64,000 nucleotides of DNA, from positions 73,049 to 137,048 of the forward strand of contig CAZXPC010000002.1 of assembly GCA_964643135.1 (NCBI GenBank), in the 5' to 3' direction. Under the pieces are notes generated by a model. The model saw only the letters and a program-made list of their open reading frames with translations. It ran no database searches and was not told the origin of the DNA. Positions 31,718-54,873 of the stretch are shown piece after piece; the first letter of the stretch is position 1; every line of letters starts with the position of its first letter. The stretch comes from an uncultured Candidatus Saccharibacteria bacterium (GTDB taxonomy: Bacteria > Patescibacteriota > Minisyncoccia > UBA6257 > Colwellbacteraceae). The translations under genes were made by a program, and so were the position numbers.

Positions 31718-31734
31718 TATACGGATATTTCAAA

Positions 31735-35720: not shown

Positions 35721-35724
35721 GGCC

Positions 35725-39254: not shown

Positions 39255-40967
39255 ATGCACTTAACTCCCGATAAACTTAAAATTTTACTGCGAGAATCCG
39301 GCGTGGTTGACGAGGATGCTTTTGATACGGCGGTTAAAGAAGCTGAGCAGACCGGCCGCTCGGTGGAAGAAATTTTAATTGCCCGCGGCGATGTGCCGGA
39401 ACACTACCTAACCGAGCTCTTAGCTAAATATTTTAATGTTCCGGTTGTGAATCTCGACTCGGTTGTGATTCCCAAAGAAGTAATCGAGCTTATTCCCGAG
39501 AGCTACGCTCAGCTTAAGAAGCTAGCCATCTTCGATTACAAAAAGGGGGAGTACGCCAAGGTCGCCATGCTGGACCCGCTCGACTACGACGCGATCGAAT
39601 ATTTGAAAACTAAGCTGGGTGTGGCGATCCAGCCCTCTCTTACGACCGGTTCCAGCCTGAGCAATGCTTTGAAGCAGTACAAGGAGCAAATCGGGAATGA
39701 ATTTAGCAAGATCATCCGCGAGAACGTGGAAAAATCGGTTACTCAAACCGGAGAAACCGACCTGGCCAAAATGGCGGCCGCCGTGCCGGTGGTGGCCATT
39801 CTAAAAAGTATTATCGAATACGCTATTTCTTTAAATGCGTCGGACATTCACTTTGAGCCGTTTTTCCAGAATTTGGTTATCAGGTACCGCGTCGACGGCG
39901 TTTTGCGCGAGGCTTTCGATTTGCCCAAACAAGTCGAGCCGACCATTGTGGCGCGCGTTAAAATTTTGGCCAACTTGCAGATCGACGAGCACCGCCTGCC
40001 GCAGGACGGCCGATTCAAATTTAATGTGACGGAAAAAGAAACGATTGATGTGCGTGTCAACATTATCCCGGTGCTTTACGGCGAAAAGGCGGAAATGAGG
40101 CTGTTGCGGAGCAGTTCGCGGCCGATTATGCTGGAAGACATCGGCTTCTCTAAAGAGGCGGTTGAAAAGGTGAACGACGAGATTCGGAAACCGCACGGTA
40201 TGATTTTGGTTACCGGTCCGACCGGTTCCGGTAAAACGACGACTCTTTACGCGATTTTGAGTATTTTGAATACGCCCAAGGTTAACATTACGACCATTGA
40301 AGACCCGATCGAGTACGAAGTTTCGGGCATCAACCAGATTCAGGTCAACACGAAAGCGGGCGTAACTTTTGCGTCGGGGCTGCGCGCTATTTTGAGGCAG
40401 GACCCGAACGTGATCATGATTGGTGAAATTCGCGACAACGAAACGGTTGAGATCGGCATTCAGGCGGCCTTGACCGGACACTTGGTTTTGTCGAGCTTGC
40501 ACACCAACGACGCGCCGTCGGCTCTGCCGAGGCTCTTGGACATGGGGGCGCCGGCGTTTTTGCTTGCTTCAACCGTTAACCTCTCAATCGCGCAGAGGCT
40601 GGTTCGTAAAATTTGCACTTCCTGCATCGAATCATACGTGCCTTCGGAAGAGTCCCGGCGGCTCGCTTTGGCGCAGTTTGAATTGGCCGGGCACAAGATT
40701 GACAAAGAGGCTATTCCTAAAAATCTATACCGCGGCAAGGGCTGTAATGTCTGCACCAATACCGGCTACCGCGGCCAGATCGCTATTTTTGAACTTATGA
40801 AAATGAGCGATGCGATCAGGGCTATGGTTTTGAAGATGGCCCCGTCGGGAGAGATCAGAGAACAGGCGATCAAAGAAGGTATGACGACGATTTTTGAGGA
40901 CGGCCTCGATAAAGCGAAAAAGGGGATCACCACGCTCGATGAGGTCCTGCGCGTGATACAAGAATAA
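39255..40967 (+). CDS. pilB: Type IV pilus assembly ATPase PilB (GspE family)
   Basis: N-terminal GSPII_E_N-like domain. Walker A GPTGSGKTTTLYA. Asp box, His box. Tetracysteine CTSC…CNVC. Confidence 0.9.
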   Translation: MHLTPDKLKILLRESGVVDEDAFDTAVKEAEQTGRSVEEILIARGDVPEHYLTELLAKYFNVPVVNLDSVVIPKEVIELIPESYAQLKKLAIFDYKKGEYAKVAMLDPLDYDAIEYLKTKLGVAIQPSLTTGSSLSNALKQYKEQIGNEFSKIIRENVEKSVTQTGETDLAKMAAAVPVVAILKSIIEYAISLNASDIHFEPFFQNLVIRYRVDGVLREAFDLPKQVEPTIVARVKILANLQIDEHRLPQDGRFKFNVTEKETIDVRVNIIPVLYGEKAEMRLLRSSSRPIMLEDIGFSKEAVEKVNDEIRKPHGMILVTGPTGSGKTTTLYAILSILNTPKVNITTIEDPIEYEVSGINQIQVNTKAGVTFASGLRAILRQDPNVIMIGEIRDNETVEIGIQAALTGHLVLSSLHTNDAPSALPRLLDMGAPAFLLASTVNLSIAQRLVRKICTSCIESYVPSEESRRLALAQFELAGHKIDKEAIPKNLYRGKGCNVCTNTGYRGQIAIFELMKMSDAIRAMVLKMAPSGEIREQAIKEGMTTIFEDGLDKAKKGITTLDEVLRVIQE

Positions 40968-41067: not shown

Positions 41068-42294
41068 ATGTTATTCACTTACGAAGCTTTTAATCGGAAT
41101 GGCGCTATTGTTACGGGTGAAGTCGACGCCGAAGATGAGAGAGGCGTAGTTTTATATCTCGAAACCAAAGACTTAATTCCGTCGAAGATCCGGCCCAAAG
41201 GCGAGAAGGGCGGTATATTAGATTTAAAATTTCTGCAGAAAATCAGGCTCTTTGAAAGAGTTAAGACGACCGACATTATCTTCTTGGTCCGGAACTTGGC
41301 GACTGCGATCAAGGCCGGCCTTAGCATTTCCGAGGCGCTTGAAATATTGATCAATGACTCCAAGCCGGGAACTTTGCGGTATGTTTTAATCAGCGCCAAG
41401 GCCACTGTTCAAGCCGGGCGGCCGCTTTCAGACGCTTTTGAGCAATATAAGAAAATATTCCCGTCGGTTTTTATCGGCCTCATTAAAGCCGGCGAGGTTT
41501 CGAGCCGTTTGGATAAGGCGCTCGAGGAACTCTCGAACCATTTGGTGAAGGAATATAACTTGGTGCGCAAAATCCGGTCGGCCATGGTTTATCCGGCTCT
41601 GCTTTTAGTGGCCACGATCGGCGTAACTGTTTTTTTGCTGACGGTTGTTTTGCCGAAGCTCACTAAAGCCTTCCAGCAGAGCAACGCTTCACTGCCGCTC
41701 ATCACGAAAATCCTTCTCGCGACCGGCACCTTTATGGCGCATAATTTTATTATTCTCTCGATTATCACGACAGCTCTGATCGGCGGATTTATCTATATGG
41801 CCAGCACCGAAAGGGGCAAGCTTTATATCGAAAAAATATTATTGAAGATTCCCGTTGTGAACGAGCTGATGAAGCGGGTCGACCTGGTGCGTTTTACCCG
41901 GACGCTGGGCAGTTTGCTCGCGAGCGCGATGCCGGTTTTAGACGCTTTGCAGATTTCAGCCGATGCGATCGGCAGCTATACCTACCGCGCGGCGCTGAAA
42001 GACGTGATCGATAAGGTTAAGTCCGGCGTGCCGCTCTCGAAGAGCCTGCAGTTCCACAAAGACCTTTTCCCGACGCTTTTGACGAGCCTGATTTCGGTGG
42101 GCGAGCGGACGGGCAACCTCGAATATGTGCTCACGACTTTTTCGGATTTCTACGATGAAGAAGTCGACAACAAGCTGAAAGACCTGACAACGCTTTTCGA
42201 ACCGATTATGCTCCTGGTGATGGGTGTTATCGTGGGCGGCGTCGCGCTTTCGATACTCTTGCCGATCTACAGCCTGGTCAGCCAGTTCACCTAA
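41068..42294 (+). CDS. pilC: Type IV pilus platform protein PilC (GspF family)
   Basis: Two GspF repeats. 3 TM. …ISEALEIL… and …GERTGNLEYVL…. Confidence 0.85.
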   Translation: MLFTYEAFNRNGAIVTGEVDAEDERGVVLYLETKDLIPSKIRPKGEKGGILDLKFLQKIRLFERVKTTDIIFLVRNLATAIKAGLSISEALEILINDSKPGTLRYVLISAKATVQAGRPLSDAFEQYKKIFPSVFIGLIKAGEVSSRLDKALEELSNHLVKEYNLVRKIRSAMVYPALLLVATIGVTVFLLTVVLPKLTKAFQQSNASLPLITKILLATGTFMAHNFIILSIITTALIGGFIYMASTERGKLYIEKILLKIPVVNELMKRVDLVRFTRTLGSLLASAMPVLDALQISADAIGSYTYRAALKDVIDKVKSGVPLSKSLQFHKDLFPTLLTSLISVGERTGNLEYVLTTFSDFYDEEVDNKLKDLTTLFEPIMLLVMGVIVGGVALSILLPIYSLVSQFT

Positions 42295-42422: not shown

Positions 42423-45400
42423 ATGTTTATTCTAAAAGAGAAAGCTCAGAGGCTAAGGGGGTATAGAAGCGGCTTCACTCTGCTTGAGTTTTTGATTGTC
42501 TCGACGGTGCTGGTGATTTTAGCCGTTGTGGCCATCAATTCTTTCGGCGGTTTTTCGCGCAAAGCTGCAATTGATAGCGCGGCCCGGGCGATTATTTCCG
42601 ACCTTCGGACGGTTCAGAGTAAGGCGGTAGCCGGGACTGATGCCGATAGTGGCGGCTCGGCTGACGACTGGGGAATTTGTTTCGTGCATGCCGCGTCGGG
42701 AGACTATTACCAAACCGTGGGAGCTATGATCGCAGCTTCATGTAAGACAACCGGCTACGATACTGCTTCCGGCGGAGTTGTCCAGGCTAAAATATTTTTG
42801 CCCAGCGGCGTAACTTATTCAACAGCCGATGATTGGTATACCAGCCCCGGCTTCGACGCCATAGTTTTTAATAAAATCAGCGGCACGCCTTCAACTACCG
42901 ACAATGTCATTGTTATCACTTCTTCCCTGGCCGACAAAATTACGACCGTCAGCTCCGATGGGCTTATTACCCAAACCTCAGTTGATATTACCTCTGTCGT
43001 TCCGACTTCAGGAATCAACACCAATTCAGCTTTCCAATTTACTCAAATCAACGGCCACGGTTTTGCGTCGGGTGCCTCGGTCAGCCTCCAGCGAAATATC
43101 CAAGGGACAGTTAATACCATAAGCTGTACCGGTGCGTCGGTCAACGCCACTGGAACGCAGATCACCGGAGCGACATGCAATTTGACCTTAGACAAACCGG
43201 CGAGCTGTACGGGCTGCCATGCTTTGGCGGGCAAGTGGGATGTTTTGGTTACGAATACCGACACCACTTCCGCGACTTTGCCCGGGGGACTCACTGTTAC
43301 CGCCAATCCGCCGACTGTGACTACGATAGTTCCGACCTCGACCGTGAACGACGACACATCGGCTCACAACACGTTAACGACGGTTAACGGTTCTAATTTT
43401 CAGGCCGGCGCAACCGTGCAGCTGACGAGAAGCGGCACGACCATTAATTGCGATACGACTTCTTCGACCATCGTGGCCGGTTCAATTTCGAGCGTCACCT
43501 GTAACGACATCGGCGGCGCTTTGGGCGCGAGCGATTGGAATGTTGTGGTAACCAATACTCTGGGAGATGGCGCCAGCGCTACTTGCAATCCGGCGTCTTG
43601 CTTAACTATCAATAACCCGACGCCGACTATAGCCGTGGGCAGTCTTACTCCGAACAGATCTAGCGCTGGCGATAGTGTGGATATAACCCTGGTCGGGGAT
43701 TCGACAGCTAACAACGGACATAATTTTGCGACCAATGCCAAAGTAAAATGGGACTGTACCAGCGACTGCACAACCGATGCTTCGAGTACAGGCATAAGCA
43801 ATGTCGTTGTCAATTGGTCCACCGATACCATTACCGCGACCGTCGCTTCGTCGTTAACAACAACCGCTGGCAGCCCTCACGCGGTCAAAGTTTTTAATCC
43901 AACTCCCGGAGGTGGCATTTCGACAAACTCGGAGCCATTTACGGTGAGCGGGGGCGCTACTTTCGGGATTACCGGCCTTAAAACTTCCGGCAGCTGTCCG
44001 GGCAGCGCTTCGGTTACGAGCAATAACGCCGGTTCTTTTGCATTCGATATTTGCGGGTCAGGTTTTTCCACAATTTCTGGCGACGTTAAAGTAACTCTTC
44101 ATGAGTCCGGCCAGCCGACCATAACCTGCAGCGGTTTCACCGTGGCGGCCAACCTCATAACCGGCGCCTCGTGCGATTTAACTAACGTGGCGGTTGCGAG
44201 CGATTGGGATGTTTGGGTAACCAACCTCTCAACCGATTCGACTGCCAAATGCTCTGACGTTGGGGGCACCGGGCCGACCCCGCGCTGCGAAGTGATTGTC
44301 ACCGCGCAGGGAGTTTCGGTGGGAAGCATCACGCCGGCTAATGGCATTCAGTTTACCTGGAACCAGCCGATTTTAGCCATTAGCGGGACCAGTTTTTCCG
44401 GCACGCCAACAGTAACCCTTACTAATGGCGGGTCCACTATAACTTGCACTGGTTTTACGGTGGCTAGTTCAACCTTGCTCATAAACGGTAGCTGTCCGAT
44501 TACTAATACAACTGCTGCCACCACCTGGACTGTACACGTGATTGTTGGCGCCTCTGATGCCACATGCGCGTGTTTTTCGATTGTAACTGCCGCTAATAAT
44601 GCCACGCTTACGCCAATAGCGCGTTTTTGGTTCCCGGCGGTTGGCGGAAGTTGCGGCTTGAGCGCTTGCGGGACCGGCAGCTGGAGTACCACCAACACCT
44701 TGAATTGGGCGACTACGCCAACCGGTTTAGGCACGGACGGCATAACTCCTACCACCGGCGCGACTGTGCCTACGACGGCGACAGATGTTTATTTTACTAA
44801 GAATTCTTTTACGGCCGACGGGGAAACAGTTACGGTTTCGAACCCTGCCTCCGCATCAAGTCTGGTTTTTTCAGGACCCGACGGGGTAAGCAAAAATATC
44901 ACTTTTACCGGTGGGGCCGAAGCAATTACTTTAGGCGATGCGACCCATGATGGCTCATTGAACTTTCAGCCTTCATGCCCTAGCACTTGCACAATAACTC
45001 GTAGTGGTGAGACTGGAGATATCAACTTCAAGTCGGGCCACGTGGGACAAGTTGCTAACTTTGCCGCGAAAGACACCGACCCCAGCTCCACCCAAAATTC
45101 TTTCGGCAAAGTTTTCTTTAATAACGGCGGAACCTATACGTTTATCAACCCATATAATTCAAACACTGCGGCTAGCAACGACATTGCTATTCTAAATTCA
45201 ACCACTGTTAATACCAATAACAACGCCCTGATATTCGGGTCCCTCACTTTCAGTTCCGGAACATTTAACCTGGGCACTAGCACCGTAACTCTTAAAGACA
45301 GCGGCAGCACGAGTTGGAGTGTGACCGGCGGAACTTTAAACGCCGCTTCCAGCACTATCGCGGTTAGTCCGGCGAGTTCCGGCACCAATACTTTTTTGGG

Positions 45401-48400
45401 CGGCGGCAAGACCTATAGCGATGTTACTTTTTCAAGCAACAATACCAATGTGACCTTAGACAGCGATGCCGCTAACAGTACCTTTAACGACATTACTTTT
45501 AGCAATACCGGCACAGTCGCATACGGAGCCGCTAGCCAAGCGACGACGGCACATGACGTCAAATTCAATAACACCAATCAGGCCGTAACGGTTAACGGCA
45601 CGGCGAATGTTTTTTACGGTATTGTTGTTAAGTGTCAAGACACTTGCGCGGGAGACACAGGCGCATTTACTTTGAGCAGCGGCTCCTCGAGCACCTTCTA
45701 TAAAACTGCGAAATTTAATAATACGACGGGCGGCACTTCCATCAGCGGCAGCAATACTTTTACCGGCGCCGTCACGTCTGCCGGAACAGTTTCAATTACC
45801 GGCAGCAGCAATACGTTTTCCAGCACGCTCGACATAGGCGGCAGCGGCAACCTGACCGTGAGCGCGAGCCAGACTTCCAACGATTATAAGGCAGCAGTTA
45901 CGGTGGCCGGCAATGCAACCTTGGAGTCGGGCAACCATTTCGAATCGACTTTAACGATTTCGGGAACGACCGCCTCGTCGATGGCCGGCGCGAGCGGCAC
46001 TTCGGCCAACAATTTTGACGATGTGGTCCGATTCGGCGGTAGTACTACCATTAAGGGGACCAACAACACCTTCGCTAAGACGCTTTGTATAGGCACGAAT
46101 AGCGGCTGCACTACGGGCTCCGGTGATTTGATATTCCATAATACGACCAACGACAACCTTGTCCACGACAACACTTTTACGGGCGCCGTCACGGTTATGG
46201 GAGTGCTGACTATGAATACTTTGCCATACGCTAATACTTTTGGAGCTAACGGGCACACCGGCGCGATCCTGACGGTGAACGGCACCACTGCTTCGTCCAT
46301 ATCAGGCAAAGGCAGCGGCACGGCCGGCAACAAATTCAACGGCGATGTTTCGATTGCCGGGACGACCAACATTAACGCCGACAACAACGAAATTACCGGC
46401 TCTTTCACTACGACCGGTTCGAGCCACGTTAATAATTTGGTTTTGACCGGCTCGGCCGGACACGACAACAAATTTGATGGAGCAGTTACAGTTGATGGAG
46501 TGCTCAATATGAATACCTCTAATACCAACACTTTTTCCGGCGCGGTCACGGTTAACGGCACCGGCACCTCGACCGTCTCAACGGGCAATACCTTTGATGT
46601 TGGAGCGCCGGTCATTGTAAGCGGAGCGTTGTCCTTGGGGTCAACCAATACGTTTAGAAGCACGGTCAATATTACCGGCGTGCTTACGGCTGTGTCGACC
46701 AACCATTTCGATGACAGCACCCACGACACGCTTACTTGCAACGATGCGGCCAATCCGGTCAATGTTTGCGTGGCGGGCACGACTTTGTCTTCCATGACCG
46801 ATAGCAACACTTTTGCCGGCAATGTTAAATTCTCTGGCGTCGGCGGCAGTGCCAGGGTGACCATGGGATCAGGCAATCAGGTTAATAATCAGAAGACTTT
46901 TAAGGTTATGGGGTCCGGCAATTCGAGCGTGATCGGGACGTCGCTCTTGCCCAACAGCTTTACCGGCACGATGTACTTCGGCGGTCAGCTTACCATTAGC
47001 GGCACTAACAACACTTTTGGAGACACCTCGGGCGACACACTGACTCTTAATACCGGCGACCTGATTTTCAGTTCCGGCGCGAGCACCAACACTTTTGCTG
47101 GCGCGGTTGCGATTACGGCCGGAGTCCTCAATATGCAAGGCACGACCAATACCAATACAAATCAGTTTTTGAGCACGCTCACGGCCGGCGGAAGCGGAGC
47201 CTCGACCATATCTTCCGGCACCAGCACAGGAACGAAAAATACTTTTGCCGGGCTAGCCACTTTTACAGGGAGGCTCGACGTGGGCAATTGGAATGCTTTT
47301 TCGGCCACGCCGACCTCGCTCACTGTGGCGGGGACAGGGACTTCTACGATGGGGCAGGACAATTCCTTTAGCGGGGCGGTGTCGTTCTCAAACGCGGGGA
47401 GCGACCTGACTTTAGCGGCAACCTCCGGGCACACCAACACTTTTAGCGGCGCCTTGACTGTTTCGGGAACGGGTGCATTTACCGGCACGGCCTACGCCAA
47501 CAACACTTTTAGTGGTGCCGTGAATATTGCCAACTCGGCTATGGCCGTAGGGTTAAACACTTGGAACACGGGCAGCTCCCTGACTCTAACCGGGGCTAGT
47601 CCGGCTCTCTCGGGCGGAAACACCTTCAAGGATGTTACGCTGAGCGGCGGCGGAACGGCGACCGTAACCGGAACTAATTCTTTCGTGAATTTGACTCGCA
47701 ACCCGGCCGCGGCTGCGACGTCTGACGGCATAACTTTCCCGGCCAGCGTTACTCAGACTGTGAGCGGCACTCTGACATTAACGGGCCACGATTTGGGCAG
47801 CCGGCTCTTTGTCACTTCCGGCACCCCGGGAACCAGAGCTACTCTTTCGGCGGCTACCGTGGCGCTTTCCAATTCTAACTTCCAAGATATAGCCGCGACC
47901 GGGACTGGAACAAAAACCGGTCCGGCTTGCGATGACGTGGCTGTGTCTACCACCTGGTGCGGAGTGTCCTTGGGAGACAACGGCAACAATACCGGCATAC
48001 ACTTTAGCGCCACCAAAACCTGGTATTGGAAGAGCGCCGGCAACACCGGCAATTGGTCGGACAGCTCGAAGTGGGCCAGCAACTCCGCCGGCACAACTCT
48101 TTGCACCTGTGTGCCTTTGCCTCAGGATACGTCTATTTTTAACGCCAACAGTTTCAACACCGGAAGCCAAATTATACACGTTGATGTTTCGAGAATCGGC
48201 GCCATCGATTTTACCGGCGTTACCAATGCTCCTCAGATTTCATTCGATACAGCGACAACTATTATGGGGGACCCGGCGACCAACGATAACAATATTATTA
48301 CTATGACGAGCGGCACCGGCAGCCCGACTATCGCCGGTACGACTGCGCTCACCTTCGGCAACGTCGGCGTAAGGAAAAAAATAACAAGCGCCACCAAGAC

Positions 48401-51038
48401 ATTTACCATGCCGATCGTGATTGATGCGACAGGGGGTAAGATTACCCTCGTTGACGCCCTCTCTATCTCGAATACTTTGACCTTAACCAATGGAACTTTA
48501 GACGCTAACAATCAAGCCGTCAGCGTTACGACATTCGATGGGTCGAACAGCAATACCAGGGGTCTTGTTATGGGCACCGGCACCTGGACTTTGAGCGGCA
48601 CGGGCACGGTTTGGAACTTATCGACCACGACCAACCTTACATATACGGCACCGACAAGTCCCGGCCTTATCACCATGAACGGTTCGAGTACCAGCGCTAA
48701 GAATTTTAACGGCGGCGGTTTGACTTACTATAACGTCTCGGTAAGCAACGGCACAACTTCGGCCTCGACCACATCAATTGACGCTTCGAATACGTTTCAG
48801 GACTTGACCGATTCGAGTGCCGGAGTTTTGACAATCGCGGCGCCCAGCACTGTTAACGGTAACTTTAATTACAGCGGCGCCGGCGGCGTGACTCTTAATT
48901 CCGGTACGGGCCCGCTCAGCGTAACCGGAACTTTCGCCGCGACCGGCGCGGTAACGATTAACGGCACCAGCAATGCTTTTCATAGCACTGCAGATATCGG
49001 GAGCGGAGCGAACGCGGTAGCGATTAACAATGCCAGCAACCATTTCTACGGCGATGTGAATTTTAATAATACCGGCAACTTAACTATCGCGGGCGGCAGC
49101 AATACTTTCGACGGGTCAGTCAATATCGCGAGCAACGGCACAGCCACGATTAGCGGTACCAGCAATACTTTCGGCAACAGCGTGACGAACAAGACCTTCA
49201 AGGTAACGGGTACGGGCGGGATCACTATCAACGGGTCGCATTTCTTCGGCACGGGCTTAACCGGCTGCGTGGTTGGAGGCATAACTCAGGCGAGCAACTG
49301 TTTCGGCGGCAACGTAACCCTGGCTTCGGGCAGCAATACTTTCGACAGTTCGTTTGGCACAACCACGGCGGGCGGCGGATCTCTAACGGCGAACACCGGC
49401 ACCACAGCCAACCTTTTCTCGGGAACGGTTACGGTCGCCGGCAACGCTGCTCTGAACTCAGTTACTTCGGATCCGACGGTTACATTCAGCAACACGGTCA
49501 ATATTACAGGGAACCTGACTCTCGGATCGTTTGCTCATTTCAACGACACCCTGACAGTGGCGAGCGCGAGCGCATCGACTATTACGAGCAGTAACGTGTT
49601 TGCCAAGGCGGTTAACTTTAGCGGCGCCGGCTTAACCATGACCGACAGCAATAACTTCTCGACCATCGCTTCGTCACTGAACGTGGCCGGAGCATTGTCG
49701 ATAGGCATAGCCAATAAATTCCACGCCACGGCTGTTTTAAATTGCACCGGCGGCAATGCGCCTGTCTGCGTAGCCGGCGGCGTGACTCTCAAAGGAGACA
49801 ACAATACTTTTGACGGTGCCTTGACGACTACTTCCAGCGGCGATTTGATATTCCATAATACGACCAACGACAACCTCGTTCACGACAACACCTTTACCGG
49901 CGCTGTCGTTGTTGCCGGAGTATTAACCATGAACACGACTCCATATAAAAATACTTTTAGCAGCACTCTCAATGTGGCCGGGAGTGGCGCCTCGTCGATC
50001 TCGGGCAAGGGCAGCGGTACGGCCGGCAATACCTTCACCAATGCTGTTTCTATAGCCGGCACGACTACAATTAATGCCGATAGCAATACTTTCAGCAGTA
50101 CGCTTGATATTACCGGGGCTCATAACTTAGTTTTCGCGGCGGCGGCCACGAGCAATATCTTTACCAGCACGGTTACGGTGGGCGGCATTTTGACCATGAA
50201 CACCGGCGCGAATAGCAATCAATTCCAGTCGACCACGACGGCTTTGAGTGTATCCGGCTCGGGCACCTCGTCGATCTCGGCTTCCAATATTTTCGGCTCG
50301 GGTTCGTCGGGGTCGGTGACGATCACCAATGCCACCGGTTCATCAACGATTGGCGACAGCAACGCTTTCCATGGACCATTCAGCTTTACCGGCACGAACG
50401 GCAGCGTGACGGTTGGTTCAAGCGCCGGGGGCAACGTATTTAGCAGCACTTTCAGTTATACCAATAGTGGACCGGCGTCTGGGTCAGTAACTTTCACCGG
50501 CGCGGGGAATAATGTGGCGAGCGGACTGACCACTCTGACCTTTAACGGCGGAGGACTCTTCAGTATCGCGGGGGCGAATACATTTCAAGATTTTACGGTT
50601 AACGGTTCCAGCATGATTACTTCCAGCTTCGCCAGTGACAATACATTTAGAGACTTTACATTCACGGGCAGTAATAGCGGAGGCATAACTTTCAAGGGAA
50701 CCGGCACTTCGACTTTTAGGAATTTCACAGTTGATACCGCTCCGAAAACCGTGAAGGTCCACACCGCCAGCACGCTCTCGATAACTAACGGATTCACGGC
50801 TACAGGCAGCCTTGCCGCCGCGGGGAGTCAGATCACTTTTTCCATGGATGGCGGAACGACCGGAGTTAACAGCTGGAATATTAGCGCTAATACCACGAGC
50901 GTAGGCGGCTTAAACGTGGCCGACAGCACCGCGAGCTTAACTGGTTCCACGCCGCATGGAGACTCATTTACCTGCAGCACCTTGAGTGAAAATTGTACCG
51001 GCATCGTTCACGACAGCGGCTGGACATTCACGCCATAG
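42423..51038 (+). CDS. Giant (2871 aa) pilin-like surface protein: type IV prepilin N-terminal domain followed by a Thr/Ser/Gly/Asn-rich beta-rich repetitive region
   Basis: N-terminus MFILKEKAQRLRGYRSG|FTLLEFLIVSTVLVILAVVAINSF (Gly at -1, Glu at +5). Then 4 tandem ~95-aa Cys-pair modules (…C.G…GA.C.LT…WDV.VTN…), then >2000 aa of G.NTF.G/NTF repeats including a long internal duplication (~46085-46420 vs ~49740-50110). Confidence 0.8.
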   Translation: MFILKEKAQRLRGYRSGFTLLEFLIVSTVLVILAVVAINSFGGFSRKAAIDSAARAIISDLRTVQSKAVAGTDADSGGSADDWGICFVHAASGDYYQTVGAMIAASCKTTGYDTASGGVVQAKIFLPSGVTYSTADDWYTSPGFDAIVFNKISGTPSTTDNVIVITSSLADKITTVSSDGLITQTSVDITSVVPTSGINTNSAFQFTQINGHGFASGASVSLQRNIQGTVNTISCTGASVNATGTQITGATCNLTLDKPASCTGCHALAGKWDVLVTNTDTTSATLPGGLTVTANPPTVTTIVPTSTVNDDTSAHNTLTTVNGSNFQAGATVQLTRSGTTINCDTTSSTIVAGSISSVTCNDIGGALGASDWNVVVTNTLGDGASATCNPASCLTINNPTPTIAVGSLTPNRSSAGDSVDITLVGDSTANNGHNFATNAKVKWDCTSDCTTDASSTGISNVVVNWSTDTITATVASSLTTTAGSPHAVKVFNPTPGGGISTNSEPFTVSGGATFGITGLKTSGSCPGSASVTSNNAGSFAFDICGSGFSTISGDVKVTLHESGQPTITCSGFTVAANLITGASCDLTNVAVASDWDVWVTNLSTDSTAKCSDVGGTGPTPRCEVIVTAQGVSVGSITPANGIQFTWNQPILAISGTSFSGTPTVTLTNGGSTITCTGFTVASSTLLINGSCPITNTTAATTWTVHVIVGASDATCACFSIVTAANNATLTPIARFWFPAVGGSCGLSACGTGSWSTTNTLNWATTPTGLGTDGITPTTGATVPTTATDVYFTKNSFTADGETVTVSNPASASSLVFSGPDGVSKNITFTGGAEAITLGDATHDGSLNFQPSCPSTCTITRSGETGDINFKSGHVGQVANFAAKDTDPSSTQNSFGKVFFNNGGTYTFINPYNSNTAASNDIAILNSTTVNTNNNALIFGSLTFSSGTFNLGTSTVTLKDSGSTSWSVTGGTLNAASSTIAVSPASSGTNTFLGGGKTYSDVTFSSNNTNVTLDSDAANSTFNDITFSNTGTVAYGAASQATTAHDVKFNNTNQAVTVNGTANVFYGIVVKCQDTCAGDTGAFTLSSGSSSTFYKTAKFNNTTGGTSISGSNTFTGAVTSAGTVSITGSSNTFSSTLDIGGSGNLTVSASQTSNDYKAAVTVAGNATLESGNHFESTLTISGTTASSMAGASGTSANNFDDVVRFGGSTTIKGTNNTFAKTLCIGTNSGCTTGSGDLIFHNTTNDNLVHDNTFTGAVTVMGVLTMNTLPYANTFGANGHTGAILTVNGTTASSISGKGSGTAGNKFNGDVSIAGTTNINADNNEITGSFTTTGSSHVNNLVLTGSAGHDNKFDGAVTVDGVLNMNTSNTNTFSGAVTVNGTGTSTVSTGNTFDVGAPVIVSGALSLGSTNTFRSTVNITGVLTAVSTNHFDDSTHDTLTCNDAANPVNVCVAGTTLSSMTDSNTFAGNVKFSGVGGSARVTMGSGNQVNNQKTFKVMGSGNSSVIGTSLLPNSFTGTMYFGGQLTISGTNNTFGDTSGDTLTLNTGDLIFSSGASTNTFAGAVAITAGVLNMQGTTNTNTNQFLSTLTAGGSGASTISSGTSTGTKNTFAGLATFTGRLDVGNWNAFSATPTSLTVAGTGTSTMGQDNSFSGAVSFSNAGSDLTLAATSGHTNTFSGALTVSGTGAFTGTAYANNTFSGAVNIANSAMAVGLNTWNTGSSLTLTGASPALSGGNTFKDVTLSGGGTATVTGTNSFVNLTRNPAAAATSDGITFPASVTQTVSGTLTLTGHDLGSRLFVTSGTPGTRATLSAATVALSNSNFQDIAATGTGTKTGPACDDVAVSTTWCGVSLGDNGNNTGIHFSATKTWYWKSAGNTGNWSDSSKWASNSAGTTLCTCVPLPQDTSIFNANSFNTGSQIIHVDVSRIGAIDFTGVTNAPQISFDTATTIMGDPATNDNNIITMTSGTGSPTIAGTTALTFGNVGVRKKITSATKTFTMPIVIDATGGKITLVDALSISNTLTLTNGTLDANNQAVSVTTFDGSNSNTRGLVMGTGTWTLSGTGTVWNLSTTTNLTYTAPTSPGLITMNGSSTSAKNFNGGGLTYYNVSVSNGTTSASTTSIDASNTFQDLTDSSAGVLTIAAPSTVNGNFNYSGAGGVTLNSGTGPLSVTGTFAATGAVTINGTSNAFHSTADIGSGANAVAINNASNHFYGDVNFNNTGNLTIAGGSNTFDGSVNIASNGTATISGTSNTFGNSVTNKTFKVTGTGGITINGSHFFGTGLTGCVVGGITQASNCFGGNVTLASGSNTFDSSFGTTTAGGGSLTANTGTTANLFSGTVTVAGNAALNSVTSDPTVTFSNTVNITGNLTLGSFAHFNDTLTVASASASTITSSNVFAKAVNFSGAGLTMTDSNNFSTIASSLNVAGALSIGIANKFHATAVLNCTGGNAPVCVAGGVTLKGDNNTFDGALTTTSSGDLIFHNTTNDNLVHDNTFTGAVVVAGVLTMNTTPYKNTFSSTLNVAGSGASSISGKGSGTAGNTFTNAVSIAGTTTINADSNTFSSTLDITGAHNLVFAAAATSNIFTSTVTVGGILTMNTGANSNQFQSTTTALSVSGSGTSSISASNIFGSGSSGSVTITNATGSSTIGDSNAFHGPFSFTGTNGSVTVGSSAGGNVFSSTFSYTNSGPASGSVTFTGAGNNVASGLTTLTFNGGGLFSIAGANTFQDFTVNGSSMITSSFASDNTFRDFTFTGSNSGGITFKGTGTSTFRNFTVDTAPKTVKVHTASTLSITNGFTATGSLAAAGSQITFSMDGGTTGVNSWNISANTTSVGGLNVADSTASLTGSTPHGDSFTCSTLSENCTGIVHDSGWTFTP
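46085..46420 (+). repeat. Internal long-range repeat within the giant pilin-like gene, copy 1 (approximate bounds)
   Basis: GGTGATTTGATATTCCATAATACGACCAACGACAACCTTGTCCACGACAACAC… recurs at 49839 with ~85% identity. Protein-level …GDLIFHNTTNDNLVHDNTFTGAV…SISGKGSGTAGN…INAD…. Confidence 0.7.
49740..50110 (+). repeat. Internal long-range repeat within the giant pilin-like gene, copy 2 (approximate bounds)
   Basis: See copy 1. Confidence 0.7.
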
Positions 51039-51077: not shown

Positions 51078-53327
51078 ATGGATAAATCTTTGAGGCGCGG
51101 CCAGCTTATTTTGGAAGCTCTGATGGCTATTGGCGTGGCCGCTATTGTGGTCGGCCTCAGCGCCGGAATTTTCACGATCAGTTTGCGCGGTAACAAAGTA
51201 TCATTAGAGCGCGATATCGCGACCGGCCTGCTCGCCGAAACCATGGATGCCGTCAAGGCAATCGGTTTTGAGAAGTGGCTGAATCTATCTAACCCGATTG
51301 ACAACACCAATACAGGCACACCGAATAAGGGGACAGGCAATCTTTATTTTATAAGCCAATCCGATTCTTCGAACGCCTTTCTTTTAGCCAGCCAGGCGCC
51401 GAGCGCAGCTCCCAATTGGCAGGCTACGTCGTCTTCATCGCCGCGGAATGTTTGGGCAGTCGGTTCGGCCTTGTCGAGCAAGGGCCAAGCCTGGAAATGG
51501 GACGGAGAAAACTGGATTGATTATTCATCGGACAGCGGCGGCGTCTCTTATTTTGGCAATGTTACCATGAACGGGGTCTCGGCTGTTTCTCTCAACGAGG
51601 TGTGGGCAGTTGGCGATACCGCCTCATCGAACTTCAAAGTTTTTAAATTTGACGGCAATGGGTTTGTCGATGAGCACGGCAACTTAACGAGCGGCGCGGT
51701 CAACCTCAATGACGTTTCGGCTCCCGGTTCAACCTCTTCTGATAAAACCAGGGTTTGGATTGTGGGGGACGGCGGTTTTGTCAGATTTAATTCGGGCCTA
51801 ACGACACCTAGCTGGAGTAATAAAGGGTATTCCGGGAGCGCAAATCTTTTCGGCGTTTCCGGGGTTGTCGATGCCGCTAATAATAATGCCGACGATGCTT
51901 TGGTGGTCGGCGCGAGCGGCACGGTCAAACTCTATAACGGTAAAGATGATGCCTGGACGGATCACACTCCGGGTGCCGGGGTGAGGTGGTCCACCAACAC
52001 TATGCGCGGCGCTTCCATGATCTCGACCAAGGATCTTTGGGTAGCGGGCGATGGGGGCAACGTTTGGAGTTACAACGGCACTACCTGGACCAGCCGCTCA
52101 AGCGATACCGGTGCCAGTTGGGGAGCGACTAACTTAAAAAAAATAACGGCTTTTAATGACAACTATGTTATCGTAACAGGCGCGAGCGGCAACGTGTGGA
52201 CTTGGAATGGTTCGACCTGGTCTAATCTCACTCCCGCCGCGGGCACAAAGTGGGACTCAAATACCATGCGCGTTTCTGATAGGTTCTCAACGGACCTCTG
52301 GTTTGTTGGAGACAATGTCGGAGGCAGCCAGGTGTGGAGATACCAGCCGGTCAAGTGGACGATTGGTTCTTGCGGCGGATCAACTTGCACGGGCACTCCG
52401 CCGGTTGATCAGGTTACCGAAAACGGCGTTACCTATAACCGCCACTTCTTTATTCAAAATATTTGCCGCTCTACTTCTGCCAATACAATTATCACCGGCC
52501 CGACCGACAGTAACGGCAATGATACAGCATGCGTCGGCAGCACGGGTTCACAAGATCCGTCAACTTTAGGTGTTACGGCTACTGTAACCTGGGCCGGCGG
52601 CAGTGTTTCTTCGTCTGACTATGTAACGAGGTGGGCTAATATTGCCTGCACCCAATCATCATGGAACGGTAGTGTTGTAGCGGATCCCAACGACGCCAAA
52701 AAGAACACTAATGTCTCGACTTGCGGCACGAGCAACTTTTCGAGTATCACTACCGATACGACTCCGCAGCATAACGCGCAATTGGCTCAATCGCCAAACG
52801 GCAATTTAGCCATTGGCAGTGCCGAGACCAAGGGAGGGACATTTACCTCGGGTGTTTTCGATGGAACTCTCTTGCCCTATAACCAAGCGCAAGGAGGCGC
52901 GTTTCCGATCGCTTCGAGGGGAGTAACTCTAAATTCGCTAATATGGAATGGCAGCAATAGCATCGGTTCTGGAGCGGTTAGGATTGCCGTTGCCACATCG
53001 AATTGCCCTAATGCCTCGACCAATGACGGGACTCACTCAGGCGATACCGGGACATGCCTGCCCGCCGGAACTTGGAATTTTGTGAATGAGTCGGGTGCCG
53101 CCGTTGGTTATGATGCGTCGAATTGCAATACCCCCGCTGGGAAATGTCTTTTGACGAGCAATTTTATGACCCCGGACCCGGGGAAGTTTGTGAAATTTAA
53201 TAATAGCAGTTTTACTAACACAAGATATTTTCGTTTTCAATTTACACTTTGCCGCACCGCTGTTTGCGCAGTATCTGTCAGTGCCCAGCCAACATTTAAT
53301 TCTATTACCATCAACTATTCTCCCTAG
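51078..53327 (+). CDS. Pseudopilin-like protein with a large W-rich repeat (propeller-like) extracellular domain
   Basis: N-terminus …LRRG|QLILEALMAIGVAAIVVGL (Glu at +5). C-terminal region has recurring …G.VW.WNG.TW…/VW.VGD… units at a ~40-50 aa period. Confidence 0.6.
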   Translation: MDKSLRRGQLILEALMAIGVAAIVVGLSAGIFTISLRGNKVSLERDIATGLLAETMDAVKAIGFEKWLNLSNPIDNTNTGTPNKGTGNLYFISQSDSSNAFLLASQAPSAAPNWQATSSSSPRNVWAVGSALSSKGQAWKWDGENWIDYSSDSGGVSYFGNVTMNGVSAVSLNEVWAVGDTASSNFKVFKFDGNGFVDEHGNLTSGAVNLNDVSAPGSTSSDKTRVWIVGDGGFVRFNSGLTTPSWSNKGYSGSANLFGVSGVVDAANNNADDALVVGASGTVKLYNGKDDAWTDHTPGAGVRWSTNTMRGASMISTKDLWVAGDGGNVWSYNGTTWTSRSSDTGASWGATNLKKITAFNDNYVIVTGASGNVWTWNGSTWSNLTPAAGTKWDSNTMRVSDRFSTDLWFVGDNVGGSQVWRYQPVKWTIGSCGGSTCTGTPPVDQVTENGVTYNRHFFIQNICRSTSANTIITGPTDSNGNDTACVGSTGSQDPSTLGVTATVTWAGGSVSSSDYVTRWANIACTQSSWNGSVVADPNDAKKNTNVSTCGTSNFSSITTDTTPQHNAQLAQSPNGNLAIGSAETKGGTFTSGVFDGTLLPYNQAQGGAFPIASRGVTLNSLIWNGSNSIGSGAVRIAVATSNCPNASTNDGTHSGDTGTCLPAGTWNFVNESGAAVGYDASNCNTPAGKCLLTSNFMTPDPGKFVKFNNSSFTNTRYFRFQFTLCRTAVCAVSVSAQPTFNSITINYSP

Positions 53328-53330: not shown

Positions 53331-54035
53331 ATGAAGACTAATCCGAAGAAAGGCTTCAGCTTGATTGAACTCCTTATTTATACGGCTCTTTTTGCCGCTA
53401 TTTCCATTTTCACGACCGGAACTTTTATTTCGGTCAGCAAAGGAGCCGCTAAGAACACTTCTTCTTACGAAGTGGTCTCCAATATGCGGTTTGCCTTGGA
53501 AAAAATCAGGCAAGATGTCAAAAATTCGATTGCGATTATCAGCCCGGTGCCGGACCAATCGAGTTCGACCCTTAATCTTCTGGTTGATACCGTCCAGGTA
53601 GCGTACAGCATCTCGGGCGGAGTTCTCCAGAGACAGACAATCGACCCCGTTTCTGGCAGTGTTCTTACAACTGGCAATATCACGTCCAGTGATACCAATG
53701 TGACCAATATCACTTTCCGATTTTTTGATAATCCTGCCATTCCTTTAGGCGTGGATCTTGCTGCGAGTATTAATACTGATATTTCCGCAAAATATAACAG
53801 CGGTTCGCCTGACTACAGCTACTCCGGAGAGCTGAATCAAACAGCCCTGGTTGAGGGCCGCTTGTCGGTCGAGAGAGGCTACTTCGGCAGTTATATCGGC
53901 GGCGGCGGCAACAACCATCCGACGAATTGTAGCAATGTATATAACAATTGGTGGCGAGAAATCTTCCTAAAAAAGGCCTATGCTCTATTACCGCCGTCAG
54001 GTTTCCCTTGCGTAGCCTCCGTGCCGCCACTATAA
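53331..54035 (+). CDS. Minor pilin / pseudopilin (prepilin-type N-terminus)
   Basis: MKTNPKKG|FSLIELLIYTALFAAISIF. Confidence 0.7.
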   Translation: MKTNPKKGFSLIELLIYTALFAAISIFTTGTFISVSKGAAKNTSSYEVVSNMRFALEKIRQDVKNSIAIISPVPDQSSSTLNLLVDTVQVAYSISGGVLQRQTIDPVSGSVLTTGNITSSDTNVTNITFRFFDNPAIPLGVDLAASINTDISAKYNSGSPDYSYSGELNQTALVEGRLSVERGYFGSYIGGGGNNHPTNCSNVYNNWWREIFLKKAYALLPPSGFPCVASVPPL

Positions 54036-54036: not shown

Positions 54037-54873
54037 ATGAAGAATAGGAAATTTAAAAAAATCGAGGCTTTTGTGGCGGTGCCGGTGGTGCTGGTTTTAG
54101 CGATACTTATGATCTCACTGGGCGGGCTGGCGCTTTCGACTTCTTACAACAACATAATTTCTTCCGGCCAAGCGGCCACGGCCGCGCGTGCCTTTCTTTT
54201 TGCCGAAGCGGGGGCGAGGGACATTTTGGGTTTGCTCGCAGTTAATCGAGACTATTGCGGTCTAGCCCAAGCATCGTGCACAACTAGTACGTCTCTTGCT
54301 TACGGCATCAATTTTAAAACCGGTGCATCCGGAAGCAGTGTCTGCGCCTCGACGAGTGATTTTACCGACGGCTGCGCCTTAGTCCGCCTCGAAGCGGAGC
54401 CTAATGATGCTTCAACTGTGGCCATAAGTTCAATGAGAATTGCAACCATAACCGGCCACCTTAAGGATGCCGTGCGGAAACTTGAATATGACGTGCTTTT
54501 TTCATCGTCAGGAAAGATTCTTAATATAAACCAAGCCGAGGTCCAGAACCAACCCACGGCTGCGACTGCCGGCGCAACCGGCGTAACTACCAATGGGGCC
54601 AACCTAAATTTGTTCACCAATCCGAACGGCAAAACAGTGACGGCTTGGTTCAGATATGGCACTAGCAACCCAACAGTTTGCAATGATACCGATTTTGGCA
54701 AGTCCACTAATCCTCCTACTTCGGGTAATTTAACCGGGACCAATCCGACATCGTATTCGGTGGGGATAAGCTCATTAAACGCGGGAACGGTCTATTACTA
54801 CTGTGCTATTGTTCAAGACACCGTGACTCTAACCAAATATTACGGCGACGTTCTTTCCATGCAGACTAACTAG
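54037..54873 (+). CDS. Pilin-like or exported protein (N-terminal hydrophobic segment with Glu, non-canonical cleavage site)
   Basis: MKNRKFKKIEAFVAVPVVLVLAILMISLGG… 1-nt gap to the upstream pilin gene. Confidence 0.4.
   Translation: MKNRKFKKIEAFVAVPVVLVLAILMISLGGLALSTSYNNIISSGQAATAARAFLFAEAGARDILGLLAVNRDYCGLAQASCTTSTSLAYGINFKTGASGSSVCASTSDFTDGCALVRLEAEPNDASTVAISSMRIATITGHLKDAVRKLEYDVLFSSSGKILNINQAEVQNQPTAATAGATGVTTNGANLNLFTNPNGKTVTAWFRYGTSNPTVCNDTDFGKSTNPPTSGNLTGTNPTSYSVGISSLNAGTVYYYCAIVQDTVTLTKYYGDVLSMQTN

What the first reader, a model, noticed from the sequence alone, without database searches (positions are those of the whole stretch)
42423..51038. 2871-aa protein with a canonical type IV prepilin N-terminus directly downstream of pilB-pilC: a giant pilin-like fibre or adhesin
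The ORF begins with a prepilin-type leader and cleavage/methylation motif (…RSG|FTLLEFLIVSTVLVILAV…, Glu at +5). It then continues for ~2800 aa through four tandem ~95-aa Cys-pair modules (Ig/TIG-like …C.G…GA.C.LT…WDV.VTN…) and a very long run of short G.NTF.G / NTF repeats. These repeats are typical of right-handed beta-helix or beta-solenoid fibres, and include a megabase-scale internal duplication (~46.1 kb vs ~49.8 kb). Canonical pilins are 120-250 aa, so a pilin-anchored 2871-aa solenoid looks like a pilus-tip or pilus-displayed adhesin, or a cell-envelope fibre delivered through the T4P machinery. It is co-transcribed in orientation with pilB and pilC, and followed by three further pilin-like genes. 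In a CPR-like episymbiont, T4P-linked giant surface proteins are strong candidates for host attachment.
Basis: partly seen in the sequence, partly recalled or inferred. Interest (0 to 1): 0.75.

Follow-up and report, generated by a model that had tools for sequence, protein, structure and literature searches.

The report
Giant fibre-bearing type IV minor pilin
A candidate-phyla-radiation (CPR) bacterium encodes a 2,871-residue pilus subunit: an ordinary small FimU/GspH-type pilin head fused to a roughly 65-nm stalk of Ig-like domains and phage-tail-fibre-like beta-helix, probably a pilus-tip adhesin and over three times the largest modular pilin in a 2021 survey.

Summary
The ORF is real: 42423..51038 (+), 2,871 aa, uninterrupted, with GC3 like the housekeeping genes. 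It lies 128 nt after pilB-pilC and ahead of three more pilin-like genes.

- Residues 1-17 are a prepilin leader (…RSG|FTLLE, Glu+5).
- The beta-helix cap modules have ≥475 relatives in giant ORFs of predicted phages; where checked, these lie next to baseplate and tail-fibre genes.
- A collinear 1,993-aa orthologue sits in the same four-gene cassette on a metagenomic contig, which argues against an assembly artefact.

Best reading: a core minor pilin of the priming/tip complex carrying a very long adhesive fibre. Function is inferred. This is an extreme, undescribed variant of the known "modular pilin" design (largest in the 2021 survey: 860 aa).

The parts
42423..42473 (+). Class III (prepilin) leader peptide, aa 1-17, ending in Gly17. 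The predicted cleavage and N-methylation site lies before Phe18.
   Evidence: Read directly from the sequence. TIGR02532 scores above its cut-off. The site is conserved in 70 homologues.
42474..42977 (+). Pilin module, aa 18-185. It comprises the long alpha-1 helix (aa 20-70) and a beta-sheet head, of FimU/GspH type.
42978..44618 (+). Five Ig-like (IPT/TIG-like) modules, aa 186-732. Four share the C…C / W.V.VTN pattern; the module at aa ~401-509 is divergent.
   Evidence: The modules align with modules of P0002 and P0003, which carry PF01833. A profile search returns mostly PF01833 proteins. The modules themselves give no direct Pfam hit.
44619..48011 (+). Beta-helix unit A, aa 733-1863. It has a 'W…W…NW' cap of type 1, NTF coils, and a unit terminus (…GNNTGIHF).
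   Evidence: Self-similarity to unit B. Collinear with P0009. Its C-terminal part matches large ORFs on viral contigs.
48012..51038 (+). Beta-helix unit B, aa 1864-2871 plus the stop codon. It has a type-2 cap (KTWYW…GNWS…PLPQDT), NTF coils, and a C-terminal end conserved with P0009.
39255..40967 (+). pilB, the assembly ATPase.
   Evidence: Pfam T2SSE 427 bits, plus the MshEN domain.
41068..42294 (+). pilC, the platform protein.
   Evidence: Pfam T2SSF 203 bits, two repeats.
51078..53327 (+). Second minor pilin, 749 aa (RRG|QLILE), with a beta-propeller-like repeat extension.
   Evidence: Prepilin motif. Blade-like hWhVGD repeats. A 707-aa orthologue follows the giant in L081.
53331..54035 (+). 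Third minor pilin, 234 aa (KKG|FSLIE).
   Evidence: Pfam N_methyl at cut-off. Weak GspJ and ComGE N-terminal matches. A 223-aa orthologue is present in L081.
54037..54873 (+). Fourth cassette gene, 278 aa. It has a hydrophobic N-terminus without Gly-1 or Glu+5, so it is GspK/PilX-like by position only.
   Evidence: Assignment rests on position only.
55040..55060 (+). Terminator-like hairpin after the last cassette gene.
   Evidence: Consensus scan only. Overall counts in the region equal chance expectation.
27612..28361 (+). Candidate major pilin, 249 aa (VKG|FTLLELLIVITIIAILSVAL…NPAET).
   Evidence: Pfam N_methyl 32.4 bits. It has the same N-terminus as the pilin directly upstream of pilB in related CPR loci.
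26073..27482 (-). PilM-like assembly protein.
   Evidence: Pfam PilM_2 46.8 bits.

Best explanation
The gene encodes a modular type IV minor pilin of extreme size.

Shown by sequence, models and comparisons:
- A prepilin leader.
- A complete FimU/GspH-type pilin module (aa 18-185).
- A ~2,690-aa C-terminal extension made of five IPT/TIG-like Ig modules and two long right-handed beta-helix units.
- Cys pairing that suggests disulfide bonds, hence an extracytoplasmic protein.

Inferred mechanism:
1. The prepilin is inserted into the membrane, and its extension is exported unfolded.
2. A prepilin peptidase encoded outside this window removes the 17-residue leader after Gly17.
3. The pilin module joins the products of the next three genes (H-I-J-K-like order). 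Together they form the complex that primes pilus assembly on PilC/PilM, powered by PilB.
4. As major pilin (candidate gene 27612-28361) is added underneath, this complex ends up at the pilus tip.
5. A thin fibre of roughly 65 nm then projects from the tip. The estimate assumes ~100 beta-helix coils at 0.48 nm each, plus five Ig domains.
6. The fibre works as an adhesin or receptor-binding device, probably for the surface of another cell. CPR bacteria lack an outer-membrane secretin, so nothing limits the size of what a pilin can carry.
For: Intact, native gene. One ORF. GC3 is 0.60, against 0.55-0.64 in pilB, pilC, secA, lepA and groEL; the raised GC comes from GC2, i.e. amino-acid composition.

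Pilin signature.

Positional orthology. In related CPR loci the gene directly after pilC is a ~150-aa pilin that aligns along its whole length with aa 1-185. The closest small relative, P0010 (182 aa), also follows pilB-pilC.

Family size. Among the best 150 of 913 library hits, nearly all are 140-200 aa. About ten others carry extensions (306-610 aa). Only P0009 (1,993 aa) exceeds 1,000 aa.

Orthologue. P0009 is collinear (34% identity over 1,290 aa; 48% at the C-terminus) and sits in pilC / giant / 707 aa / 223 aa / 254 aa.

Phage link. At least 475 IMG/VR relatives of the cap module lie in ORFs of 400-2,390 aa. In L127 these lie beside baseplate-wedge-like and tail-fibre-like genes, and L087 carries a terminase. 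P0004, P0005 and P0007 are full-length homologues of these viral ORFs.

Extracytoplasmic character. 21 sequential Cys pairs and a single strongly hydrophobic N-terminal segment.

Literature.
- Core minor pilins FimU/PilV/PilW/PilX (= GspH/I/J/K) form the initiating tip complex (PMC7248040).
- Modular pilins are expected to be tip-exposed and often adhesive (PMC8179133).
- In Saccharibacteria TM7x, a minor pilin with a large accessory domain (PilX2) is needed for efficient host binding (PMC11623550).
Against: - There is no experimental evidence of expression, processing, pilus incorporation or binding.
- No prepilin peptidase gene lies in the 64-kb window, and no retraction ATPase was seen.
- The giant itself does not reach the Pfam GspH or NCBIfam GspH cut-offs. 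The family assignment rests on fold and on 13 of 70 relatives.
- The I/J/K identities of the three downstream genes rest on gene order and weak N-terminal matches.
- The beta-helix model has moderate confidence (pTM 0.53) and was built from an 8-row alignment.
- In T2SS/T4P models GspH/FimU sits below the I-J-K cap, so the fibre would emerge just under the very tip.
- Only one giant orthologue was found.
Confidence: 0.62

Rival explanations
1. The pilin-type N-terminus serves only as a membrane anchor, or builds a very short pseudopilus as in type II secretion. The Ig and beta-helix fibre then stands directly on the cell envelope as a surface fibril, not on the tip of an extended pilus.
For: GspH-type subunits also work in short T2SS pseudopili (PMC7248040). 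No PilT gene lies in the window. A ~65-nm fibre could cross a cell wall or S-layer on its own (inference).
Against: The gene occupies the slot of a core minor pilin inside a pilB-pilC-minor-pilin cassette. A typical major pilin gene and a pilM gene are nearby. The invariant Glu+5 and the conserved alpha-1 helix are features needed for filament assembly, not for mere anchoring.
Confidence: 0.2
2. The beta-helix units are enzymes rather than passive adhesins. On this reading they are tailspike-like polysaccharide depolymerases, carried on the pilus to cut a path through the capsule or cell wall of a host cell.
Against: The top matches are non-enzymatic adhesins (EtpA, Vag8, pertactin). No glycosidase or lyase family was detected by Pfam or NCBIfam. 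The regular NTF coils look structural. No catalytic residues could be assessed.
Confidence: 0.1
3. The cassette builds a competence (ComG-like) pilus for DNA uptake, and the giant subunit is its ComGD-like component with no role in cell-cell adhesion.
For: Weak NCBIfam matches to ComGD for the giant (E 2.4e-4) and to ComGE for the 234-aa gene (E 2.2e-4). The gene order resembles comGA-GB…GD-GE. CPR are thought to scavenge DNA, and Thermus ComZ is a pilin with a DNA-binding beta-solenoid (PMC8179133; PMC7248040).
Against: All of those matches fall far below the family cut-offs and cover only the N-terminal helix. The protein is acidic (137 Asp+Glu against 81 Lys+Arg), which is a poor fit for DNA binding. 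DNA uptake does not explain a ~65-nm Ig and beta-helix stalk.
Confidence: 0.06
4. The long ORF is an artefact: a mis-assembly of repeats, a fusion of several genes, or a decaying pseudogene.
For: The sequence is repetitive and low in complexity. Read mapping could not be done.
Against: The longest internal DNA repeat is 132 nt at 77% identity, and there are no tandem arrays, so there is nothing for an assembler to collapse. There are 2,871 codons without a stop. GC3 matches the rest of the genome. An independent contig from another sample carries a collinear orthologue with the same domain order and the same neighbours.
Confidence: 0.03

Closest known systems
Modular type IV pilins (Raynaud et al. 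2021, PMC8179133): S. sanguinis PilB (pilin + vWA) and PilC (pilin + lectin), ETEC CofB, Thermus ComZ (pilin + beta-solenoid)
   Same: A small N-terminal pilin module with a class III signal peptide is fused to extra functional modules. These proteins are minor, low-abundance subunits, are expected to be tip-exposed, and are often adhesive. Many examples come from CPR.
   Different: The largest case in that InterPro-based survey was 860 aa. This one is 2,871 aa, with about 2,690 aa of extension. The extension is a long multi-domain fibre rather than a single globular module. None of its modules is recognised by Pfam, so such a survey would not have counted it.
FimU / GspH (EpsH, XcpU) core minor (pseudo)pilins
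   Different: FimU and GspH are about 140-190 aa with no extension. Sequence similarity here is below the family cut-offs. The host is a CPR bacterium without a secretin.
PilY1 / PilC tip adhesins of T4aP, and TM7x PilX2 (PMC11623550)
   Same: A large adhesive protein is presented by the minor-pilin tip complex. In TM7x, PilX2 is a minor pilin with a large accessory domain that is needed for efficient host binding.
   Different: PilY1 is not a pilin and has a beta-propeller. Here the adhesin candidate is covalently part of a core minor pilin and is a beta-helix fibre. The neighbouring 749-aa pilin, not the giant, carries the propeller-like repeats.
Beta-helical fibre adhesins of two-partner and autotransporter secretion (EtpA, FHA/HMW1, pertactin, Vag8)
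   Different: There is no TPS domain, no autotransporter barrel and no detectable sequence homology. Export and anchoring go through the pilin route.
Giant tail-region (putative tail-fibre) proteins of uncultivated phages (IMG/VR loci L083-L162; relatives P0004, P0005 and P0007)
   Same: The ~300-aa beta-helix cap modules are homologous at 36-43% identity, and the repeated-unit design is the same.
   Different: The viral proteins have no pilin module and sit among baseplate and tail-fibre genes. The window gene lies in a chromosome among housekeeping genes.

Membership tests
Type IV pilin (class III signal peptide; TIGR02532 / PF07963) | Short charged leader ending in Gly, then about 20 hydrophobic residues with Glu at +5. 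| tested here: met
   …RSG|FTLLEFLIV…. In 70 relatives, Gly-1 occurs in 62/68, Phe+1 in 60/68 and Glu+5 in 70/70.
Type IV pilin (class III signal peptide; TIGR02532 / PF07963) | HMM score above the curated cut-off. | tested here: met
   TIGR02532 scores 19.7 against 16.3. PF07963 scores 23.7 against 21.2 on aa 1-190, but 19.5, below cut-off, when the whole 2,871 aa is scored.
Type IV pilin (class III signal peptide; TIGR02532 / PF07963) | Lollipop fold: an extended alpha-1 helix packed on an antiparallel beta-sheet. | tested here: met
Type IV pilin (class III signal peptide; TIGR02532 / PF07963) | Cleavage and N-methylation by a prepilin peptidase, and polymerisation into a filament. | not testable with these tools
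   No A24 peptidase gene lies in the window. The rest of the genome was not available.
Type IV pilin (class III signal peptide; TIGR02532 / PF07963) | Encoded with type IV filament machinery. | tested here: met
   pilB and pilC lie directly upstream. A pilM-like gene and a major-pilin-like gene are in the window.
GspH/FimU core minor pilin (PF12019, TIGR01708) | Sequence match above the family cut-off. | tested here: not met
   There is no PF12019 hit for the giant. TIGR01708 scores 24.9 bits against a cut-off of 80. However, 13 of 70 aligned relatives do hit PF12019 (best E 1.2e-7).
GspH/FimU core minor pilin (PF12019, TIGR01708) | GspH/FimU-type globular fold. | tested here: met
GspH/FimU core minor pilin (PF12019, TIGR01708) | First gene of an H-I-J-K-type minor pilin cassette. 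| tested here: inconclusive
   The four-gene cassette and its order are conserved. The I/J/K identities rest only on position and weak N-terminal matches.
Modular pilin (sensu Raynaud et al. 2021) | A complete pilin module followed by additional, non-pilin modules. | tested here: met
   aa 1-185 match whole small pilins. aa 186-2871 are Ig-like plus beta-helix.
IPT/TIG Ig-like domain (PF01833) | Pfam match of the modules. | tested here: inconclusive
   No direct hit even at E ≤ 1. The modules align at 34-47% identity with modules of PF01833-annotated proteins, and most profile hits carry PF01833.
Right-handed parallel beta-helix (pectin-lyase-like fold) | Stacked three-strand coils, with fold similarity to known beta-helices. 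| tested here: met
PilY1/PilC tip adhesin | C-terminal PilY1-type beta-propeller in a non-pilin protein. | tested here: not met
   No such Pfam match. The protein is itself a pilin, and its extension is beta-helical.
Phage tail fibre / receptor-binding protein | Encoded in a phage structural module. | tested here: not met
   The window is chromosomal, with secA, rpsB, trmD, lepA, prfB, ftsEX and groEL, and the gene's GC3 is native. Only the beta-helix cap modules are shared with viral ORFs.

The most novel reading that the evidence does not exclude
The episymbiont has grafted a phage-type receptor-binding fibre onto the core minor pilin that primes pilus assembly. Every pilus would then be born with a ~65-nm, host-specific 'tail fibre' at its end, turning the type IV pilus into a harpoon for catching the right host cell.

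On this reading, exchange of beta-helix units with phages that infect the same hosts would set and shift the symbiont's host range. The variable coil number between orthologues (2,871 vs 1,993 aa) would tune reach.
Probability: 0.2. Interest if true: 0.8.

Novelty: new variant of a known kind. Interest (0 to 1): 0.55.

Why it matters
How ultrasmall CPR/Patescibacteria find and hold their host cells is largely unknown. Type IV pili are the one machinery shown experimentally to contribute, in Saccharibacteria (PMC11623550).

This locus offers a concrete, testable candidate for the recognition device. A single gene's N-terminus plugs into the pilus, and its remaining 94% is a fibre built from adhesin-like and phage-tail-fibre-like parts.

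For pilus biology, it stretches the 'modular pilin' idea more than three-fold in size. It also shows that a core FimU/GspH-type subunit, not just an accessory pilin, can carry the cargo. That is plausible only in cells without a secretin.

The shared modules with phage tail-region proteins hint that symbionts and phages draw on one pool of host-binding parts.

Tried and rejected
Searches that led nowhere:
- A word-indexed homologue search with aa 1-190 alone returned nothing.
- The whole-protein search returned only 7 partial hits and missed the true orthologue.
- The profile of pilin plus Ig region retrieved only TIG proteins. No further giant pilins were found that way.
- An exact-sequence contig look-up of the window protein failed, and no source names it.
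- A PDB profile search with the Ig-module alignment gave nothing.
- Pfam on each Ig module and on the unit caps gave nothing.
- The metagenome scan yielded a single locus, holding the small relative P0010.
- PHROGs did not recognise the viral beta-helix ORFs themselves. The cultured-phage hit, Limnohabitans phage DC31, lies in an unannotated stretch.
- The promoter and terminator scan was at chance level.

Ideas considered and rejected:
- A diversity-generating retroelement, prompted by the Avd-like gene upstream of pilB. The internal repeat pair differs by all kinds of substitutions, not at adenines only, and no reverse transcriptase was seen.
- Recent horizontal acquisition. GC3 is native.
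- A C-terminal membrane or wall anchor. There is no second hydrophobic segment and no sorting motif.
Full report
**1. The observation**

The window holds one uninterrupted ORF at 42423..51038 on the + strand, 2,871 codons. The ATG is the only possible start, because an in-frame stop lies five codons upstream.

The N-terminus reads MFILKEKAQRLRGYRSG|FTLLEFLIVSTVLVILAVVAINSF. This is a basic leader ending in Gly, then Phe+1, Glu+5 and a ~24-residue hydrophobic stretch.
- NCBIfam TIGR02532 (IV_pilin_GFxxxE) scores above its cut-off (19.7 vs 16.3).
- Pfam N_methyl passes on the isolated N-terminal 190 aa (23.7 vs 21.2). It falls just short when the whole low-complexity protein is scored (19.5).
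- It is the only strongly hydrophobic segment in the protein.

Directly upstream are pilB (T2SSE, 427 bits) and pilC (T2SSF, 203 bits). Downstream, separated by 39, 3 and 1 nt, are three more genes:
- a 749-aa protein (RRG|QLILE);
- a 234-aa protein (KKG|FSLIE);
- a 278-aa protein with a hydrophobic but non-canonical N-terminus.

The composition is extreme: 30% Ser+Thr, 12% Gly and 9% Asn.

1. The internal duplication near 46.1 and 49.8 kb is 132 nt at 77% DNA identity, and about 195 aa at 54.5% protein identity. It is not 'megabase-scale'.
2. There are five Ig-like modules, four of them with the quoted motif.
3. Only two of the three downstream genes are canonical prepilins.
4. There are no tandem DNA arrays.

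**2. Is it a real gene?**

Four lines of evidence say yes.
- GC3 of the giant gene is 0.60, the same as pilB, pilC, secA, lepA, prfB and groEL (0.55-0.64). The raised overall GC comes from second codon positions, i.e. from amino-acid composition.
- Internal DNA repeats are short and diverged, so there is nothing for an assembler to collapse.
- A full HMMER scan of 1.84 billion representative proteins with aa 1-190 found a second giant, P0009 (1,993 aa). It is collinear with the window protein: 34% identity over 1,290 aligned residues and 48% at the C-terminus.
- The P0009 contig (L081, from a different sequencing run) reads pilC-3' end / 1,993 aa / 707 aa (RKG|QLLLE) / 223 aa (EG|FTLVE) / 254 aa. 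This is the same cassette.

The two orthologues differ mainly in the number of NTF coils.

**3. What the N-terminus is**

PilB's closest relatives (59-62% identity) are from Parcubacteria/Paceibacteria-type CPR MAGs. In those loci the order is major pilin - pilB - pilC - a ~150-aa pilin - a ~200-330-aa 'G(Q/A)LLxE' pilin.

The first ~185 residues of the giant align end to end with those ~150-aa pilins. They share motifs throughout, including DL+..Q.KA..G…WG..F…YYE.F, YLP.G..F and ..F.+I.G.

Results of the library scan:
- 913 proteins matched at E ≤ 0.001.
- Of the best 150, almost all are 140-200 aa and are matched over their entire length.
- About ten others carry extensions (306-610 aa).
- Apart from the query itself, only P0009 exceeds 1,000 aa.

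The closest small relative (P0010, 182 aa) also lies directly after pilB-pilC. The giant is therefore the positional orthologue of an ordinary minor pilin that has acquired a ~2,690-aa C-terminal extension. Other lineages have added unrelated extensions to the same pilin (L006 574 aa, L011 737 aa, P0056 and P0037).

The prepilin site is conserved across 70 aligned relatives: Gly-1 in 62/68, Phe+1 in 60/68 and Glu+5 in 70/70.

Thirteen of the 70 relatives hit Pfam GspH. The giant itself does not reach any GspH cut-off, and Foldseek found nothing. I therefore call it FimU/GspH-like by fold and position, not a demonstrated sequence-family member.

**4. What the extension is**

*aa 186-732.* These are five ~100-aa modules. 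They align at 34-47% identity with modules of multi-domain proteins annotated with IPT/TIG (PF01833). A profile search retrieves mostly PF01833 proteins. Pfam does not score the modules directly.

*aa 733-1863 and 1864-2871.* These are two large units. Each opens with a Trp-rich cap:
- type 1: …W.…G.W……NW……VPT..D.YF;
- type 2: KTWYW..AG..GNWS…W…..PLPQDT.IF.

Each then continues with NTF coils of irregular ~21-22-aa period.

All 42 cysteines fall in 21 sequential pairs 2-21 residues apart (0 of 20,000 random placements). That pattern fits a disulfide-bonded extracytoplasmic protein.

*Length estimate (inference).* About 2,140 aa of beta-helix at ~21.5 aa and 0.48 nm per coil gives ~48 nm. Five Ig domains add ~20 nm. 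The extension would then be roughly 65 nm, the same order as whole pili measured on TM7x (means 77 and 122 nm; PMC11623550).

**5. An unexpected relationship**

The first ~300 aa of unit B have at least 475 relatives (36-43% identity) in IMG/VR viral contigs. They lie inside ORFs of about 400-2,390 aa.
- In L127 the flanking genes match PHROG baseplate-wedge and tail-fibre/tail-collar families.
- L087 carries a large terminase.
- The best non-orthologous cellular-database hits to the giant (P0004, P0005, P0007) are full-length homologues (39-59% identity) of these viral ORFs.
- One cultured phage, Limnohabitans phage DC31, also encodes the module, in an unannotated stretch.
- Some relatives (P0006, P0008) look like cellular surface proteins with terminal membrane segments.

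The beta-helix units therefore belong to a module family used by phage tail-region proteins, which are probably receptor-binding fibres, and by cell-surface proteins.

**6. How it most likely works**

Shown: the anatomy described above and the gene context.

Established knowledge (PMC7248040):
- FimU/PilV/PilW/PilX correspond to GspH/I/J/K.
- These core minor pilins assemble first and end up at the filament tip.
- Modular pilins carry functional modules and are expected at the tip (PMC8179133).
- In Saccharibacteria, a minor pilin with a big accessory domain (PilX2) is needed for efficient host binding (PMC11623550).

Inference: the giant prepilin is inserted in the membrane and processed after Gly17. 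Together with the next three gene products it primes assembly on PilC/PilM, driven by PilB. It is then lifted out on the growing filament of the candidate major pilin (27612-28361). Its fibre projects from the tip region as an adhesin or receptor-binding device. CPR cells lack an outer-membrane secretin, which removes the size limit that diderm pili impose (my own knowledge).

Caveats:
- No PilD or PilT gene lies in the window.
- The I/J/K assignments are positional.
- GspH-type subunits sit under the cap, not at its apex.

**7. Rivals**

- *Surface fibre anchored by an unassembled pilin helix or a short pseudopilus (0.2).* It cannot be excluded without imaging. The invariant Glu+5 and the cassette context argue for assembly.
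- *Competence pilus component (0.06).* The ComGD and ComGE matches are weak, and the protein is acidic.
- *Artefact or pseudogene (0.03).* It is contradicted by the orthologue, the codon usage and the lack of near-identical repeats.

**8. Comparison with the known, and novelty**

It works like a modular minor pilin and meets that definition. The published InterPro survey found more than 1,200 modular pilins with 264 architectures; the largest was an 860-aa Falkowbacteria protein (PMC8179133). This protein differs in several respects:
- It is 3.3 times larger.
- None of its extension modules is recognised by Pfam.
- The carrier is a FimU/GspH-type core pilin.
- The cargo is a fibre as long as a short pilus, built partly from phage-tail-type modules.

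Full-text searches for giant or large pilins in CPR found no description of such a protein. The sequence is in NCBI without a name.

I rate it a new variant of a known kind, with interest 0.55. It is notable for pilus and CPR specialists and directly testable, but it is conceptually an extension of an established design principle.

Noticed in passing
window 51078-53327 (+): The second minor pilin (749 aa, RRG|QLILE) is itself a large modular pilin. It carries at least four blade-like 'hWhVGD…W' repeats that suggest a beta-propeller. A 707-aa orthologue follows the giant in L081. It recalls TM7x PilX2 and PilY1, but gives no Pfam or PDB sequence hit.
   Followed up: partly
window 28470-38045 (both strands): Five paralogous ~540-aa polytopic membrane proteins (35-80% identical, 6-8 TM-like segments) lie here, with a class I methyltransferase (31735-32358) and a GT2 glycosyltransferase (35725-36441, - strand). 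None of the five has a Pfam hit even at E ≤ 1. In related CPR loci the major pilin gene lies directly upstream of pilB, so this ~10-kb block looks inserted between them. It may be a glycosylation island for the Ser/Thr-rich pilins.
   Followed up: partly
loci L083-L162 (IMG/VR); window 48012-48980: The ~300-aa Trp-rich beta-helix cap module (…YW..G.GNW…W…SGG…PL.QDTA.F) defines a large family not recognised by Pfam or PHROGs. The family occurs in giant ORFs (up to ~2,390 aa) of predicted phages. In L127 the neighbours are baseplate-wedge-like and tail-fibre-like genes.
   Followed up: partly
L163 (Limnohabitans phage DC31, PQ492658.1 record 2294-3124, - strand): A 36.6%-identical match to the beta-helix cap module lies in a stretch where the GenBank record annotates no CDS on that strand. 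A large structural gene may have been missed in that phage's annotation.
   Followed up: no
window 38833-39195 (+): A 23S-rRNA-IVP / bAvd-like four-helix-bundle protein is encoded just upstream of pilB. No reverse transcriptase was seen in the window. The giant's internal repeat pair does not show adenine-specific mismatches, so there is no sign of a diversity-generating retroelement.
   Followed up: yes
window 54037-54873 (+); L081 9457-10221: The fourth cassette gene lacks Gly-1 and Glu+5 (KKIEA|FVAVP here; DNG|FISLP in the orthologue), as GspK/PilX-type cap subunits do. Its C-terminal ~90 aa ('W(F/Y)RYG…YYYC…YG.V.SF.T') recurs at the C-terminus of the 297-aa pilin P0012 and in the surface protein P0008. 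This looks like a small shared domain of unknown function.
   Followed up: no
window 25489-27482 (-): A PilM-like gene (469 aa, PilM_2 46.8 bits) is followed by a 189-aa ORF with a sub-threshold T2SSM_b match (E 0.012). They lie divergently upstream of the major-pilin-like gene and are probably the alignment/platform components of the same pilus.
   Followed up: no
window 46125-46165 vs 49842-49882: Within the diverged internal duplication there is a run of about 35-40 nt of perfect identity, encoding DLIFHNTTNDNLVHDNTF. The surrounding sequence has drifted to 77% identity. This could reflect local gene conversion or strong constraint on this coil.
   Followed up: no
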